The notes: generated by a model not told the origin, from the sequence alone. A stretch of DNA of 42,119 nt from Actinobacteria bacterium UBA7422 (GCA_002469525.1 DKME01000129.1:8217-50335), one strand, 5' to 3'; shown: positions 12,508 to 17,875, counted from the first letter of the stretch. A program made the numbers and translations.

Positions 12508-13341
12508 TTGCGCAAGCAAAAATCGTGTGTGAGCGATTCAGGCCCCAGCACAAAGTTCGAGGTCGAGTCCCCGATAGCCCGCCTTGACCAGGTGGTAATT
12601 TTTGGCAAACCACGCCTCTGGGTAGGACTCTTAGGGGTTATTTCACTTATTCTCGCCGGGCTCGTGTGGGGTTTATTGTCCTCTCCGCCAGTAACGGTGG
12701 GTGCTCGAGGCGTCCTCTCCACTCAAGGCGGCCCACTTGAGATTGGAACTTCCCAGAGTGGAACCGTGACCGGGCTTAACGTGGTTCTGGGGGAGAGCGT
12801 TCAACGCTTTAACGTAATTGCCGTCGTTCAAGACGACCAAGGAAATTTTTCACCCATAACCACTTCGGTATCGGGAACCGTGATTGAGATCTCAACACAG
12901 GTGGGCGACTTTGTTAGAGAGGGCGAGAGCATCGCGATAATTCAGGATTCGCGCGAGCAATTGCAAGCTATCGCGTTAATCCCTGTCTCAACTGTGGGAA
13001 CAATAGAAGTGGGTCAGCCGGTGAATATCACCGCTGTTTCTGTTCCTGTGGGACAGTTCGGATACCTCCAGGGCACCGTGGCAACTATTTCAAGTATCCC
13101 GATGAGCCGTGCCCGAGTCAATCAATTGGTGGGCAGCGTCGCGGGATATCAAGACATTGACACATTGTCCGAGCCAATCGTTGAGGTGCGTGTGGATCTA
13201 ACGCAGGATCCAGAAACCGTCTCCGGATTTGCCTGGACAATTGGAGTTGGGCCCCCATTTGGCCTGCTGGCCGGTACTCCTTGGACCGGCGACATTATTA
13301 CCGGATTTCAAAGCCCGCTCACATCACTTTTCGGTTCCTAA
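12508..13341 (+). CDS. HlyD-family secretion adaptor, short form (paralogue of 3412-4236)
   Basis: 277 aa from TTG 12508 (alternative GTG at 12529). It has the same layout as the first HlyD-like protein: a short tail, one TM helix (LWVGLLGVISLILAGLVWGLL), lipoyl-like halves (VSGTVIEISTQVGDFVREGESIAIIQ) and a beta-barrel region. The stop overlaps the next start (TAATG at 13339-13343). Confidence 0.6.
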   Translation: MRKQKSCVSDSGPSTKFEVESPIARLDQVVIFGKPRLWVGLLGVISLILAGLVWGLLSSPPVTVGARGVLSTQGGPLEIGTSQSGTVTGLNVVLGESVQRFNVIAVVQDDQGNFSPITTSVSGTVIEISTQVGDFVREGESIAIIQDSREQLQAIALIPVSTVGTIEVGQPVNITAVSVPVGQFGYLQGTVATISSIPMSRARVNQLVGSVAGYQDIDTLSEPIVEVRVDLTQDPETVSGFAWTIGVGPPFGLLAGTPWTGDIITGFQSPLTSLFGS

Positions 13342-15668: not shown

Positions 15669-17875
15669 ACCAATCGCCACTAACCCAGCAGAATCAAGAC
15701 CACGAAAGCTCTGCTCGTGCGCGCAAAAAAAATCAGAGCGATCAAGCCGCAGCAACAATGGGTCGTCTGTTAAATCCAGCATTGCCCCTCCCTTCGGCCA
15801 TGCTGGGTGGCGGACGAGTTGGCGAGATTGTTGCGATTTTGGCTCGAGAGATGAATTTTACGCAAAACCCTGTGCAGGTTGATTCGTCTTTGAGCGATCT
15901 TGATCAAGTGGATCGAGCATTGGCGGCGTCAGGTGTTCGAACCCGCAGGGTCACCCTGTCTCAAGATTGGATAGAACTGACAACAATGAACATGGTGGTC
16001 CACACTTCAGGTGGGTTGACTTCAGGTGGATTGGCCGTCGTCGTTCCAGGTTCGCTGCGTAGGCCTCGAATAATTGAGGTTAATGCTGACCCTCGAGATG
16101 TCGATTCAGAGCTGGCCCGGGAAATTTCATTCACTGCCTTGGAAGTGATCCAACCCTTAAAACCCGGAACTCCTCGAAACTGGGATTTGATCAAATTGTC
16201 CGTTTCTGGGATGCGCGGCGATTTGACCTACGCCATTCTGGCTTCCGTAGCCGTCGGGCTCATAAGTCTGGCAATTCCCATTGCCACAAGCCTAATTTTT
16301 TCGAACGTTGTCCCCGAAGGAGACACCGCGCGACTTGGAATAGTTTTCGTCGTCCTCCTCCTCCTCGCCAGCGCCTCCGCGTTTTTCGTGTACCTGCGGA
16401 CTTACCAACTCATTCGCATCTATGACGGAATCGACATGAACATGTTTGGTTCGATCCTAGATCGCATATTGAGACTACCCATGAGTGGGCTGCGAGATTG
16501 GTCGAGTGCGCGCATTGCGTCCAAGGTGAGTTTAAGTGTGCAATTGCAATCAGCAATCGCGCAGGCAATCGGTGTGGGTCTATTCGCTGCACTCCTTGTT
16601 GTACTTAACGGAGTACTCATGCTCGTCTTGATCCCAAGCCTCGGTGCTATCGCGATTTTGCTCGGTGGCGCATTGCTGGGGGCCACCTGGTACCTAATTT
16701 CTCGTGAGAAACAACAAGTGCATGCGGAGCGAATCGCCAGCGACAACTTGGAAGAAGTCACACTGGATTTAGTGCGAGGCTGGGTGCCTATTCGGCTCTC
16801 TGACGGGGAAACCTCGGGCTTTGGTCGTTGGGTGTCAAGTTTTGCCCAGCATAGAAGTGCATATGACGCGCGTTGGCGCTACGAGATGCGCACTGACATT
16901 CTGCGCATCGCCTTTATCGCGATCATGTCCCTCGCATTTGTGTGGACGGCGTACCTGCTGCCGCTTGGAACGATTTCTTCCGCGAGCTTCCTCGCCTTTC
17001 TGTCCGCGTTCACGCAATTTTCATTTGGGATCGCAGGCGTCACGGTTACGATCAGGGCATTCACTCACGCCCTCGTTGATACCGAAAGGGTAAAAGAAAT
17101 TCTGTCGATTCCAGTTGAAGATTCAACGGCCAGGGAATCTCCTGGGATGCTTACTGGCGCCATTGAATTGCGGGGGGTTTCATTTCGTTATGCCGACGAT
17201 TTTCCAAAAGTGTTGAACGATGTTAATTTCACCGTCGGGCCCGGAGATTTTATTGCGATCGTAGGTAGCTCTGGTTCTGGCAAATCCACGTTGCTTCGGC
17301 TGATGCTGGGCTTTGAAGCGGCAACACAAGGTTTAGTGGCCTATGACGACACTGATCTTTCCATGATGGATCTAAACGCTGTGCGACGCCAATTCGGGGT
17401 GGTTTTGCAGTCAAGTTTACTTCTTCCGGGAACGATCCGAGAAAATATCTCTGTCACAACGGGAAGTGTCAGCGACGCTCAACTTTGGCAAGTACTCGAA
17501 CAGGTTGATCTGTACTCATTCGTTGAGGGGCTCCCACTCGGGTTAGACACCGTGATTGACGAAGGCGCGCACGTGCTTTCTGGTGGACAGCGTCAGCGCA
17601 TGCTCCTTGCACGAGCATTGGCTCACGCACCTGCTGTTCTTTTCCTTGACGAGGCAACGAGTGCTCTAGACAACATCAGCCAGAAGGCAGTCTCCGACCG
17701 AATTGAAAATCTGGGAATAACACGAATCGTGATCGCTCACAGGCTCTCTACAATTGAGGCTGCTGACAAGATCATCGTTCTGGATAAAGGTTCGGTTGTT
17801 CAGACCGGTACCTATTCCGAATTAGTGAATCAGCCGGGATTTTTTTCCCAGCTCGTGGCTAGACAGGAGCTGTAA
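15665..17875 (+). CDS. ABC exporter permease/ATPase with ~180-aa Cys-free N-terminal extension (paralogue of 6374-9214)
   Basis: 736 aa; ATGA overlap at 15665-15668. The NBD is intact (GSSGSGKST, LSGGQRQRMLLARAL, VLFLDEATSALD, IAHRLST). LQSSLLLPGTIRENI parallels LQSSKLLPGTIFANI of 6374-9214. The N-terminal region (GVRTRRVTLSQDWIELTTMNMVVH) resembles a C39-like fold, but I saw no Cys in its first ~180 aa. Confidence 0.8.
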   Translation: MNQSPLTQQNQDHESSARARKKNQSDQAAATMGRLLNPALPLPSAMLGGGRVGEIVAILAREMNFTQNPVQVDSSLSDLDQVDRALAASGVRTRRVTLSQDWIELTTMNMVVHTSGGLTSGGLAVVVPGSLRRPRIIEVNADPRDVDSELAREISFTALEVIQPLKPGTPRNWDLIKLSVSGMRGDLTYAILASVAVGLISLAIPIATSLIFSNVVPEGDTARLGIVFVVLLLLASASAFFVYLRTYQLIRIYDGIDMNMFGSILDRILRLPMSGLRDWSSARIASKVSLSVQLQSAIAQAIGVGLFAALLVVLNGVLMLVLIPSLGAIAILLGGALLGATWYLISREKQQVHAERIASDNLEEVTLDLVRGWVPIRLSDGETSGFGRWVSSFAQHRSAYDARWRYEMRTDILRIAFIAIMSLAFVWTAYLLPLGTISSASFLAFLSAFTQFSFGIAGVTVTIRAFTHALVDTERVKEILSIPVEDSTARESPGMLTGAIELRGVSFRYADDFPKVLNDVNFTVGPGDFIAIVGSSGSGKSTLLRLMLGFEAATQGLVAYDDTDLSMMDLNAVRRQFGVVLQSSLLLPGTIRENISVTTGSVSDAQLWQVLEQVDLYSFVEGLPLGLDTVIDEGAHVLSGGQRQRMLLARALAHAPAVLFLDEATSALDNISQKAVSDRIENLGITRIVIAHRLSTIEAADKIIVLDKGSVVQTGTYSELVNQPGFFSQLVARQEL

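What the first reader, a model, noticed from the sequence alone, without database searches (positions are those of the whole stretch)
12508..17875. Second HlyD-ABC-ABC module lacks any catalytically competent C39 peptidase
Seen:
- In 13341-15668 the segment aligned to the catalytic STECG of the LanT-type paralogue reads PTDGG (Gly codons at 13374-13379).
- The expected His (YHYLVV in the paralogue) is Tyr (RYFVLV).
- In 15665-17875 I see no Cys anywhere in the ~180-aa N-terminal extension.
- All ATPase motifs of both subunits are intact, so the module looks functional as a transporter.

Established: C39-like domains without the catalytic Cys (as in HlyB-type type I secretion ABC transporters) bind substrates without cleaving them.

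Inference: module 2 may move an uncleaved or already-processed cargo. Candidates are immunity by efflux of the mature peptide, or secretion of a different substrate.
Basis: partly seen in the sequence, partly recalled or inferred. Interest (0 to 1): 0.65.

Follow-up and report, generated by a model that had tools for sequence, protein, structure and literature searches.

The report
Peptide exporter with dead peptidase domains
The second transporter module really has no working leader-cutting peptidase, and it is a conserved exporter of a group of aquatic Actinobacteria that sits beside genes for leader-bearing peptide natural products, which leaves open who removes their leaders.

Summary
In ABC1' (13341-15668) the catalytic Cys/His of the C39 peptidase are Gly12/Tyr95, and only Asp111 remains. 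ABC2' (15665-17875) has no Cys at all. All ATPase motifs are intact.

This is not a decaying copy. All 37 relatives at 47-99% identity, from Candidatus Nanopelagicales and other Actinomycetota MAGs, lack the Cys. All 30 canonical NHLP-exporter homologues keep it. Structure models show both N-terminal domains keep a C39 fold, so module 2 would carry two non-catalytic C39-like domains.

Module 2 is not an appendage of the lanthipeptide cluster. HlyD'-ABC1'-ABC2'-SBP is a conserved operon. It mostly occurs without LanM or a canonical C39 transporter, which argues against dedicated lanthipeptide immunity.

In about nine loci it lies beside NHLP- or Nif11-type precursors with intact Gly-Gly motifs. 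These come with LanM, radical-SAM or YcaO maturases.

My best reading, at about 0.55, is a functional exporter of GG-leader peptides that docks the leader without cutting it. Leader removal would then be uncoupled from export, or supplied here by module 1. I rate it a new variant of a known kind.

The parts
12508..13341 (+). HlyD' : short (277 aa) membrane-fusion/accessory protein of module 2. Its TAA stop overlaps the ATG of ABC1' (TAATG).
   Evidence: Pfam HlyD_3 6e-09. TIGR03794 scores 125.5 bits, below the 156.2 cut-off, and only model positions 248-416 match. Orthologues lie directly upstream of ABC1' in all clade loci.
13341..15668 (+). ABC1' : 775-aa ABC half-transporter made of a C39-like domain, a TMD, an acidic linker and an NBD.
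   Evidence: TIGR03796 scores 575.6 bits (cut-off 853.3). Pfam finds Peptidase_C39 at 35.9 bits, ABC_membrane and ABC_tran. ATPase motifs are intact. Homologue P0001 is 99% identical, and P0002-P0037 are 47-69% identical.
13341..13760 (+). C39-like domain (CLD) of ABC1', residues 1-140. Gly12 (13374-13376) replaces the catalytic Cys and Tyr95 (13623-13625) replaces the catalytic His. Asp111 (13671-13673) is kept. Cys16 (13386-13388) is invariant in the clade but lies mid-helix.
   Evidence: Alignments. AF2 model: pLDDT 85, pTM 0.79, helix alpha-1 spanning residues 9-23. Foldseek: ComA PEP TM 0.79-0.80, LahT 0.75, HlyB CLD 0.71.
14718..14945 (+). Clade-specific acidic linker insert of about 55 aa between the TMD and NBD of ABC1' (residues about 460-535).
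   Evidence: The region is 88-92 aa in clade members and 34-36 aa in canonical homologues. One metatranscriptome contig has an in-frame 15-nt insertion at 14835.
15665..17875 (+). ABC2' : 736-aa ABC half-transporter and presumed heterodimer partner. It has no Cys. Its start overlaps the ABC1' stop.
   Evidence: TIGR03797 scores 548.4 bits (cut-off 709.4) over model positions 9-685. No Cys. Motifs intact. P0121 is 100% identical and is named Candidatus Nanopelagicales bacterium.
15806..16159 (+). Second, more divergent C39-like domain, in ABC2' (residues about 48-165).
   Evidence: AF2 model: residues 50-165 have pLDDT 82-90. Foldseek hits are almost only C39 or CLD domains: PCAT1 PEP, HlyB CLD 3zua TM 0.59, 3b79 0.60, ComA 0.64. 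Sequence profiles alone failed.
17875..18771 (+). SBP_bac_3 lipoprotein, translationally coupled to ABC2'. A conserved fourth gene of the operon.
   Evidence: Pfam SBP_bac_3 1e-22. It follows ABC2' in 22 of 23 loci with enough flank. The best NCBIfam hit is the sensor domain of Ser/Thr kinase StpK7.
18752..20176 (+). dCache-HAMP membrane protein with no output domain, overlapping the SBP gene. A frequent neighbour of the module.
   Evidence: Pfam dCache_2 3e-43 and HAMP 4e-09. Present in L001, L004, L006, L011, L012, L014, L016, L088 and L090.
25..2112 (+). ABC-type TMD, degenerate NBD and cNMP-binding domain in one protein. It recurs next to the module in other loci.
   Evidence: Pfam cNMP_binding 3e-16 and ABC_membrane 1e-05. 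Orthologues in L001, L006, L012, L014, L019, L020, L088 and L090.
2248..3012 (+). ParA/MinD-like ATPase that recurs near the module.
   Evidence: Pfam AAA_31, ParA and CbiA. Orthologues at 70-87% identity in L001, L011, L012, L014, L017, L019, L020, L088 and L090.
3053..3343 (+). LanA: Nif11-type precursor. The leader ends ...LSESDLEAVSGA and the likely core is GDWWKTNCGPISM.
   Evidence: TIGR03798 scores 36.7 bits, above the 32.3 cut-off. Pfam Nif11 scores 27.5. It is the only NHLP/Nif11-like ORF found in the window.
3412..9214 (+). Module 1: HlyD (3412-4236), ABC1 with a competent C39 domain (4233-6377; Cys22, His95, Asp111) and ABC2 (6374-9214; an extra N-terminal region of about 245 aa, then a CLD-like region).
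   Evidence: Pfam Peptidase_C39 6e-33. TIGR03796 scores 732.8 bits and TIGR03797 scores 522.5 bits. Cys269 of ABC2 is Ala in the L004 orthologue.
9251..12382 (-). LanM class II lanthipeptide synthetase, divergent from HlyD'.
   Evidence: Pfam DUF4135 4e-84 and LANC_like 3e-35.

Best explanation
Module 2 (HlyD'-ABC1'-ABC2') is a functional, non-proteolytic member of the NHLP/Nif11 bacteriocin-export trio. It is the resident version of that system in a clade of aquatic Actinomycetota (Candidatus Nanopelagicales).

ABC1' and ABC2' most likely form a heterodimeric exporter. Each subunit carries an N-terminal C39-fold domain without a nucleophile.

The well-preserved domain of ABC1' most likely still docks the amphipathic C-terminal helix and Gly-Gly end of NHLP/Nif11 leaders. 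The peptide would then be threaded into the transporter without being cut.

Leader removal would therefore be uncoupled from export. It could happen outside the cell, by another protease, or not at all. In this genome the C39 domain of module 1 could also supply it.

The lanthipeptide cassette (LanA, module 1, LanM) is an add-on beside this pre-existing operon. Module 2 is not its immunity pump.

**Shown:**
- loss of Cys and His
- C39 fold in both subunits
- intact ATPase motifs
- clade-wide conservation
- operon structure
- adjacency to GG-leader precursors

**Inferred:**
- heterodimer formation
- leader docking
- export without cleavage
For: - **Dead active site.** Gly12 and Tyr95 align to Cys27/His101 of LahT150 and Cys21 of PCAT1. 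The clade has 0 of 37 Cys, against 30 of 30 in canonical homologues.
- **Fold kept.** The ABC1' domain model has pLDDT 85 and matches active C39 domains at TM 0.75-0.80. The ABC2' domain model matches C39 and CLD domains.
- **Transporter looks functional.**
  - All ATPase motifs are present.
  - Against the P0002 orthologue, domain identities are CLD 51%, TMD 77% and NBD 81%. The peptidase domain of module 1 shows a similar relative divergence against L004 (79, 88, 87%).
  - Metatranscriptome contigs from four runs cover the module.
- **Family.** The best NCBIfam hits are the three NHLP export proteins.
- **Independence from LanM.** The operon occurs without LanM or module 1 in L001, L003, L006, L008-L020 and L088-L090. 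L006 has a syntenic right flank.
- **Cargo class.** GG-leader precursors lie directly upstream and co-directional in these loci:
  - L017 has at least 13 NHLP genes with a radical-SAM/SPASM maturase.
  - L088 and L090 have 6-7 NHLP genes with a fused YcaO cyclodehydratase.
  - L011 has a Nif11 gene ending about 60 nt before HlyD'.
  - L021 has one immediately upstream, and L015 has four about 1-3 kb upstream on the opposite strand.
- **Leader motif.** The leader ends (LSESDLELVAGG, LSDEHLTAVSGG, and LSESDLEAVSGA in the window) have hydrophobic residues at -4, -7 and -12. C39 domains recognise that motif (PMC6363468, PMC10885120).
Against: - No experiment exists. Binding of leaders by the Cys-less domain is inferred.
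- Most clade loci (about 15 of 25) show no precursor within the fetched flanks. The window's only precursor is separated from module 2 by module 1 and LanM.
- I could not check whether the MAGs with precursors but no canonical C39 nearby encode a C39 peptidase elsewhere.
- All three proteins score below NCBI's equivalog cut-offs.
- The conserved SBP, Cache-HAMP and cNMP partners are not explained by a plain exporter model.
- RNA evidence comes from assembled contigs and may include DNA carry-over.
Confidence: 0.55

Rival explanations
1. Module 2 exports something other than GG-leader peptides. The SBP, Cache-HAMP and cNMP-binding proteins would form a sensing or regulation circuit around it. 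On this reading, adjacency to RiPP genes reflects a shared genomic island and not a cargo relationship.
For: - The SBP follows ABC2' in 22 of 23 loci, whereas precursors are seen in only about 9 of 25.
- Cache-HAMP, cNMP-TMD and ParA-like genes recur next to the module.
- CLDs in HlyB-type systems serve substrates without leaders (PMC8277102).
- L001 has a HemolysinCabind protein 7 kb away.
Against: - Precursor arrays are immediately upstream and co-directional in L011, L017, L021, L088 and L090. That is the arrangement of a dedicated exporter.
- The trio's closest families are the NHLP export proteins.
- No consistent alternative cargo gene is seen across loci.
Confidence: 0.2
2. Module 2 is a self-protection pump that expels the mature lanthipeptide made by LanM and LanA.
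For: - It is adjacent to and divergent from lanM, sharing the 126-bp intergenic region 12383-12507.
- It has no peptidase activity, so it could handle a processed product.
Against: - The module is conserved in many loci without LanM or any lanthipeptide genes, including the 64%-identical L006 with the same right flank.
- Its architecture is a type-IV exporter with C39-like domains plus a HlyD-like partner. It is not a LanFEG-type ABC-2 system.
Confidence: 0.1
3. The domain is still a protease that uses a non-canonical nucleophile. Candidates are the clade-invariant Cys16, or the Ser/Thr found at the Cys column in some relatives.
For: - Cys16 is invariant in 37 of 37 clade sequences. His is kept in 33 of 37 and Asp in 35 of 37.
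- GG motifs in neighbouring precursors are strictly conserved.
Against: - Cys16 aligns to Ser in LahT150 and to a second Cys in PCAT1, four residues inside helix alpha-1. In the model the helix spans residues 9-23.
- The Cys-column residue varies (G, M, L, V, S, T, A), so no nucleophile is conserved there.
- In this window His is also lost, replaced by Tyr95.
Confidence: 0.05
4. Module 2 is a duplicate in the course of decay.
For: - Catalytic residues are lost.
- All three proteins score below NCBIfam cut-offs.
Against: - The reading frames are long and intact, and the ATPase motifs are intact.
- The clade is conserved across at least 37 sequence clusters.
- The start and stop codons of the genes overlap.
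- An indel polymorphism in the linker keeps the reading frame.
- Identity to module 1 is only 24% outside the NBD, so this is not a recent duplicate.
Confidence: 0.02

Closest known systems
NHLP/Nif11 three-gene export cluster (TIGR03794 HlyD-like, TIGR03796 ABC with peptidase, TIGR03797 ABC) of Haft et al. 2010 (PMC2887384)
   Same: - Same three-gene order and the same best-scoring families.
- ABC2 lacks an active peptidase in both.
- Both lie next to NHLP/Nif11 precursors with LanM or YcaO maturases.
   Different: - The cleaving subunit has lost its catalytic Cys in the whole clade, and here its His as well.
- Scores fall below the equivalog cut-offs.
- The HlyD-like protein is short, about 260-277 aa.
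- ABC1' has an extra acidic linker of about 55 aa.
- A conserved SBP_bac_3 gene is fused into the operon.
PCAT/AMS transporters with an active C39 domain (PCAT1 4ry2/6v9z, ComA 3k8u/8hf4, LahT 6mpz)
   Same: - Domain order is C39 fold, then TMD, then NBD.
- The ABC1' domain model superposes on ComA, LahT and PCAT1 peptidase domains at TM 0.75-0.80 and rmsd about 2.0-2.4 A.
- Neighbouring precursors carry the -4/-7/-12 hydrophobic motif and Gly-Gly.
   Different: - It has no Cys/His dyad.
- It is probably a heterodimer of two different half-transporters, not a homodimer.
HlyB-type type I secretion ABC transporters with a C39-like domain (3zua, 8dck, 7sgr)
   Same: - C39 fold without the catalytic Cys.
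- Most clade members keep the His, as HlyB keeps His83 (PMC8277102).
- An HlyD-like partner is present.
   Different: - This is an independent loss inside the NHLP-exporter family, in monoderm Actinomycetota, with no TolC-type partner seen.
- The likely substrates have N-terminal Gly-Gly leaders, not RTX proteins with C-terminal signals.
- The ABC1' domain is structurally closer to active peptidases than to the HlyB CLD (TM 0.79 against 0.71).
HetC of Nostoc PCC 7120, a PCAT with a cNMP-binding domain that binds ppGpp (PMC10986499)
   Same: A PCAT-family exporter is linked to a cNMP-binding domain and to a suspected signalling-peptide role.
   Different: - HetC has an active, essential Cys/His peptidase, and its cNMP domain is in the same chain.
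- Here the cNMP domain sits on a separate degenerate ABC-like protein (25-2112), and the peptidase is dead.

Membership tests
NHLP bacteriocin export trio (TIGR03794/TIGR03796/TIGR03797) | Three adjacent genes: a HlyD-like protein, an ABC protein with an N-terminal C39 domain, and a second ABC protein | tested here: met
   Genes at 12508-13341, 13341-15668 and 15665-17875 have overlapping start and stop codons. The best NCBIfam hits are exactly these three models.
NHLP bacteriocin export trio (TIGR03794/TIGR03796/TIGR03797) | Scores above the curated equivalog cut-offs | tested here: not met
   Scores are 125.5 against 156.2, 575.6 against 853.3, and 548.4 against 709.4 bits. Module 1 also falls below its cut-offs.
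NHLP bacteriocin export trio (TIGR03794/TIGR03796/TIGR03797) | The TIGR03796 subunit is a working peptidase with a Cys/His/Asp triad | tested here: not met
   The positions are Gly12, Tyr95 and Asp111. The clade has 0 of 37 Cys.
NHLP bacteriocin export trio (TIGR03794/TIGR03796/TIGR03797) | Genomic association with NHLP (TIGR03793) or Nif11-type (TIGR03798) precursors | tested here: met
   The window's LanA scores 36.7 on TIGR03798 (cut-off 32.3). An L017 precursor scores 60.4 on TIGR03793 (cut-off 50.9). Precursor arrays lie next to the module in L011, L015, L017, L021, L088 and L090.
PCAT/AMS (peptidase-containing ABC transporter) | N-terminal papain-like C39 fold | tested here: met
   Pfam PF03412 scores 35.9 (cut-off 22). 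The profile against LahT150 gives 5.7e-20. The AF2 model with Foldseek gives TM 0.75-0.80.
PCAT/AMS (peptidase-containing ABC transporter) | Catalytic Cys on helix alpha-1 and His on the beta-sheet | tested here: not met
   Gly12 and Tyr95 occupy the columns of Cys27 and His101 of LahT150 (PMC6363468).
PCAT/AMS (peptidase-containing ABC transporter) | Proteolytic cleavage of the leader at Gly-Gly, shown by assay | not testable with these tools
   This needs an enzyme assay.
HlyB-type CLD transporters of type I secretion | C39-like fold lacking the catalytic Cys | tested here: met
   True for both ABC1' and ABC2' domains.
HlyB-type CLD transporters of type I secretion | Substrate is a leaderless RTX-type protein with a C-terminal secretion signal | tested here: inconclusive
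   No RTX gene is in the window. Neighbouring candidate cargos in clade loci are GG-leader peptides. One locus, L001, has a HemolysinCabind gene 7 kb away.
HlyB-type CLD transporters of type I secretion | Full-length HlyD-type adaptor and an outer-membrane factor in a diderm envelope | tested here: not met
   HlyD' is 277 aa and matches only the C-terminal third of TIGR01843 and TIGR03794. No TolC-like gene was seen. The host is an Actinomycetota MAG.
LanFEG-type lantibiotic immunity ABC transporter | A separate ATPase (LanF) with ABC-2 type permeases (LanE/G) | tested here: not met
   Both proteins are fused ABC_membrane plus ABC_tran half-transporters of the exporter type.

The most novel reading that the evidence does not exclude
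A lineage of abundant aquatic Actinomycetota has replaced the cleave-and-export PCAT mechanism with a dock-and-export mechanism.

A heterodimeric exporter with two dead C39 domains would serve GG-leader RiPPs from at least three maturase classes: LanM, radical SAM and YcaO. The peptides would leave the cell as pro-peptides and be activated, or sensed, outside.

The operon-encoded SBP lipoprotein, Cache-HAMP proteins and a cNMP-binding ABC-like protein would act as the sensory or regulatory arm of a peptide-signalling circuit.
Probability: 0.25. Interest if true: 0.75.

Novelty: new variant of a known kind. Interest (0 to 1): 0.6.

Why it matters
Peptidase-containing ABC transporters are thought to couple leader removal to export, so that active peptides never build up inside the producer. 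C39-like domains without the Cys are known from Gram-negative RTX-toxin secretion, where substrates have no Gly-Gly leader (PMC6363468, PMC8277102).

Here a whole clade of NHLP-type exporters has lost the nucleophile. It still sits beside arrays of precursors with conserved Gly-Gly leaders.

If the inference holds, several things follow:
- Leader recognition and leader cleavage can be separated in nature.
- It gives a natural test case for what the C39 domain contributes to transport apart from catalysis.
- Leader peptidases for these RiPPs must be sought elsewhere, which matters for genome mining and heterologous production.

It also points to an unexplored set of RiPP clusters in Candidatus Nanopelagicales. 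My full-text searches found no paper describing them.

Tried and rejected
- **Short homologue search.** Searching the 5.8-billion-protein collection with only the ABC2' N-terminal 200 aa returned nothing. The full-length query gave only four clade members.
- **Sequence-only fold assignment for ABC2'.** The profile against PDB gave no meaningful hit. hhalign of the ABC2' and ABC1' N-terminal profiles gave 5.9% probability. The fold was assigned only from the AF2 model and Foldseek.
- **Cys16 as a substitute nucleophile.** Rejected. It aligns to Ser in LahT150 and to the second Cys of PCAT1, and lies mid-helix.
- **Ser/Thr at the Cys column in some relatives as a Ser-His-Asp triad.** Rejected, because the column varies (G4, M16, L1, V1, S10, T3, A2).
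- **Cys269 of module-1 ABC2 at the Cys-equivalent column.** Rejected. It is Ala in the L004 orthologue, and the His-equivalent position is Tyr.
- **Unknown 336-340-aa protein** upstream of HlyD' in L088 and L090, considered as a possible leader protease. It matched no family in Pfam or NCBIfam and shows no similarity to DUF2332 of L017.
- **Promoter and terminator consensus scan.** Uninformative: promoter-like sites were at chance level.
- **Literature.** Searches for C39-like domain with NHLP, and for Nanopelagicales with lanthipeptide or RiPP, found nothing relevant.
- **dN/dS** was not attempted, because the closest orthologue with DNA is only 51% identical in the domain and synonymous sites would be saturated.

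
Full report
**Layout**

The left half of the window carries the following genes:
- an ABC-like protein with a cNMP-binding domain (25-2112)
- a ParA/MinD-like ATPase (2248-3012)
- a Nif11-type precursor, LanA (3053-3343; TIGR03798 36.7 bits, above the cut-off)
- module 1: HlyD 3412-4236, ABC1 4233-6377, ABC2 6374-9214
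- a divergent LanM (9251-12382, minus strand)
- module 2: HlyD' 12508-13341, ABC1' 13341-15668, ABC2' 15665-17875
- an SBP_bac_3 lipoprotein (17875-18771)
- a dCache-HAMP protein (18752-20176)

The genes from HlyD' to the Cache-HAMP gene have overlapping or abutting start and stop codons. Housekeeping genes follow to the right. An identical ABC2' protein in the public collection is named Candidatus Nanopelagicales bacterium. The DNA occurs nearly unchanged in about 20 marine and estuary metagenomes.

**Checking the observation**

- BLASTP of the two ABC1 paralogues aligns STECG (Cys22) with PTDGG (Gly12-Gly13). It aligns YHYLVV (His95) with RYFVLV (Tyr95). Asp111 is kept.
- The Gly codons GGT GGA are at 13374-13379, and the Tyr codon is at 13623-13625.
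- A profile of the clade's N-terminal domain matches LahT150 (6mpz, E 5.7e-20), PCAT1 and ComA. It places the Gly12 column on Cys27 of LahT150 and Cys21 of PCAT1.
- Cys27, His101 and Asp117 are the experimentally defined triad of LahT150 (PMC6363468).
- ABC2' has no Cys in its N-terminal extension or anywhere else.
- Walker A, Q-loop, LSGGQ, Walker B with Glu, D-loop and H-loop are present in all four ABC proteins.

**Is it a one-off decay?**

No. A homologue search with ABC1' returned a tight group, P0001-P0037, at 47-99% identity and 730-786 aa. All come from metagenomes or Actinomycetota MAGs. Below them, after a gap, come canonical NHLP exporters at 29-34% identity.

| Column | Clade (37 sequences) | Canonical (30 sequences) |
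|---|---|---|
| Catalytic Cys | G4, M16, L1, V1, S10, T3, A2; no Cys | Cys in all 30 |
| His | kept in 33 | kept |
| Asp | kept in 35 | kept |

- The window, its 99% twin P0001 and P0002 have also lost His. P0002 comes from the only other loci (L004/L005) that carry LanM and module 1. With so few independent cases this link is anecdotal.
- The nearest LanM-less relative, P0003, keeps His.
- Between the window and P0002 the domain is 51% identical, the TMD 77% and the NBD 81%. The active peptidase domain of module 1 shows a similar relative divergence between the window and L004 (79, 88 and 87%).
- Outside the NBD, the two ABC1 paralogues are only 24% identical, so this is an old split.

**Structure-guided check**

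| Domain | Model quality | Best Foldseek matches (TM normalised by target length) |
|---|---|---|
| ABC1' N-terminal | pLDDT 85, pTM 0.79 | ComA 0.79-0.80 (rmsd about 2.1-2.2 A), LahT 0.75, PCAT1 peptidase domain (rmsd 2.0-2.3 A in the best matches); HlyB CLD somewhat lower at 0.71 |
| ABC2' N-terminal | pLDDT 82-90 over residues 50-165, from only six sequences | Almost exclusively C39 or CLD domains: PCAT1, HlyB CLD 3zua 0.59, Vibrio 3b79 0.60, ComA 0.64 |

The ABC1' results are, and the ABC2' results.
- In the ABC1' model, helix alpha-1 spans residues 9-23. Gly12 is in its first turn, where the nucleophile should be, and the clade-invariant Cys16 is one turn further in.
- Sequence profiles alone could not show the ABC2' relationship.
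- Module 2 would therefore carry two C39-like domains and no nucleophile.
- Module 1 carries one competent C39 domain and one C39-like region. Cys269 of module-1 ABC2 is not conserved.

**Genomic context elsewhere**

I examined about 25 loci that encode clade members.
- HlyD'-ABC1'-ABC2' is followed by the SBP_bac_3 gene in 22 of 23 loci with enough flank.
- The dCache-HAMP protein, the cNMP-binding ABC-like protein, a second HAMP protein, two unknown proteins and the ParA-like ATPase recur nearby.
- LanM and a canonical C39 module are present only in the window and in L004/L005.
- L006 is 64% identical and has the same right flank (acetolactate decarboxylase, FGGY kinase, TauE), but it has neither LanM nor module 1.
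- So the lanthipeptide cassette sits beside a pre-existing operon. It is not the reason that operon exists.

**Cargo class**

A phmmer scan of six-frame translations, plus the gene calls, found precursors next to the module.

| Locus | Precursors | Maturase or neighbours |
|---|---|---|
| L017 | at least 13 tandem NHLP genes, ...LSESDLELVAGG then Cys-rich variable cores (TIGR03793 60.4 bits, above the cut-off) | radical-SAM/SPASM maturase |
| L088, L090 | 6-7 NHLP-type genes, ...LSDEHLTAVSGG then Cys | fused TOMM cyclodehydratase (TIGR03604 222 bits, above the cut-off) and an FAD enzyme |
| L011 | one Nif11-like gene ending about 60 nt before HlyD' | two-component system beside it |
| L021, L015, L014 | further NHLP genes | no maturase seen nearby |

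- None of these loci has a canonical C39 transporter within 10 kb.
- The leader ends carry hydrophobic residues at -4, -7 and -12 and a Gly-Gly or Gly-Ala end. This includes the window's ...LSESDLEAVSGA. C39 domains bind that motif (PMC6363468, PMC10885120).
- Haft et al. defined the HlyD-like/ABC-peptidase/ABC trio as the export system that co-occurs with NHLP and Nif11 precursors (PMC2887384). The present clade is that trio with the peptidase switched off.

**Expression**

Assembled contigs from four metatranscriptome runs cover LanA, module 1, LanM and module 2 at comparable low depth. This is supportive only. Contig depth is a poor measure of expression, and DNA carry-over cannot be excluded.

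**Interpretation**

The best-supported reading is that module 2 is a working, non-proteolytic exporter of the NHLP/Nif11 type. Its well-preserved C39-like domain on ABC1' is most simply explained as a leader-docking module.
- Because cleavage normally frees the cargo from the peptidase domain, export here would have to move the whole pro-peptide or rely on another protease.
- In this genome, the C39 domain of module 1 could do the cutting.
- Dedicated immunity is unlikely, because the module is conserved without any lanthipeptide genes.
- A cryptic protease is unlikely, because no candidate nucleophile is conserved and this copy has also lost His.
- Decay is excluded by the conservation.
- The main uncertainty is whether the adjacent precursors are really the cargo. 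The role of the conserved SBP, Cache-HAMP and cNMP partners is also unexplained.

**Comparison with the known**

C39-like domains without the Cys are described for Gram-negative RTX type I secretion, where substrates lack Gly-Gly leaders (PMC6363468, PMC8277102, PMC10986499).
- I found no description of such a domain in the NHLP-exporter family.
- I found none in Actinomycetota, and none next to GG-leader RiPP precursors.
- I therefore rate this a new variant of a known kind, of moderate to good interest.

Noticed in passing
window 14835 (inside 14718-14945): One metatranscriptome contig (run X25) carries an in-frame 15-nt insertion (AAGAGGGCGAAGATG) in the acidic TMD-NBD linker of ABC1'. This linker is a clade-specific insert of about 55 aa, bounded by conserved VDPxLxDPY and GGRKRG...DPWAA motifs.
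   Followed up: partly
window 17875-18771 and 18752-20176: The SBP_bac_3 lipoprotein is translationally coupled to an exporter operon, which is unusual. Its best NCBIfam match is the extracellular sensor domain of Ser/Thr kinase StpK7 (154 bits). The overlapping dCache-HAMP gene has no output domain. Together they suggest a sensing function tied to the exporter.
   Followed up: partly
window 25-2112: An ABC-type transmembrane domain is followed by a degenerate nucleotide-binding domain (signature reads LTVNDRQR, no Walker A) and a cNMP-binding domain. It recurs next to the module in many loci. The parallel is HetC, whose cNMP domain binds ppGpp (PMC10986499).
   Followed up: partly
window 2248-3012: A ParA/MinD-like ATPase has a deviant Walker A (FRGGTGKS). 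Orthologues at 70-87% identity lie near the module in other loci, often beside two unknown proteins of about 242 and 480 aa and a HAMP-only protein.
   Followed up: partly
window 6374-7108: Module-1 ABC2 has an extra N-terminal region of about 245 aa with no Pfam match, ahead of its C39-like region. Distant homologues (P0125, P0127) have similar long N-terminal extensions, one with an FHA domain.
   Followed up: no
window 3053-3343: LanA has a very short predicted core (GDWWKTNCGPISM) with one Cys and one Thr/one Ser, so at most a single (methyl)lanthionine ring. LanM is much less conserved between the window and L004 (53%) than module 1 (69-85% across its three proteins).
   Followed up: partly
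L017 1721-9046: An array of at least 13 NHLP precursor genes has near-identical leaders and hypervariable Cys/Trp-rich cores. It is interrupted by a radical-SAM/SPASM maturase (3053-4618) and a DUF2332 protein. The architecture resembles prochlorosin clusters, but in an Actinomycetota MAG.
   Followed up: partly
L088 2275-8522 and L090 2223-9171: These NHLP-TOMM clusters have 6-7 precursors, a fused YcaO cyclodehydratase and a geranylgeranyl-reductase-like FAD enzyme. An unknown 336-340-aa protein lies directly upstream of HlyD' and matches no family.
   Followed up: partly
L011 5128-8288: A histidine kinase and a LuxR-type response regulator lie immediately beside the Nif11-type precursor and the module. 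A PrsW-family protease is 4 kb away. The layout recalls peptide quorum-sensing loci.
   Followed up: no
loci L012, L014, L019, L020, L022, L023, L025: Several record titles (Bifidobacterium breve, uncultured Rubrivirga) look inconsistent with the gene content and with the sister loci, which are labelled Nanopelagicales. These are probably mislabelled MAG records.
   Followed up: no
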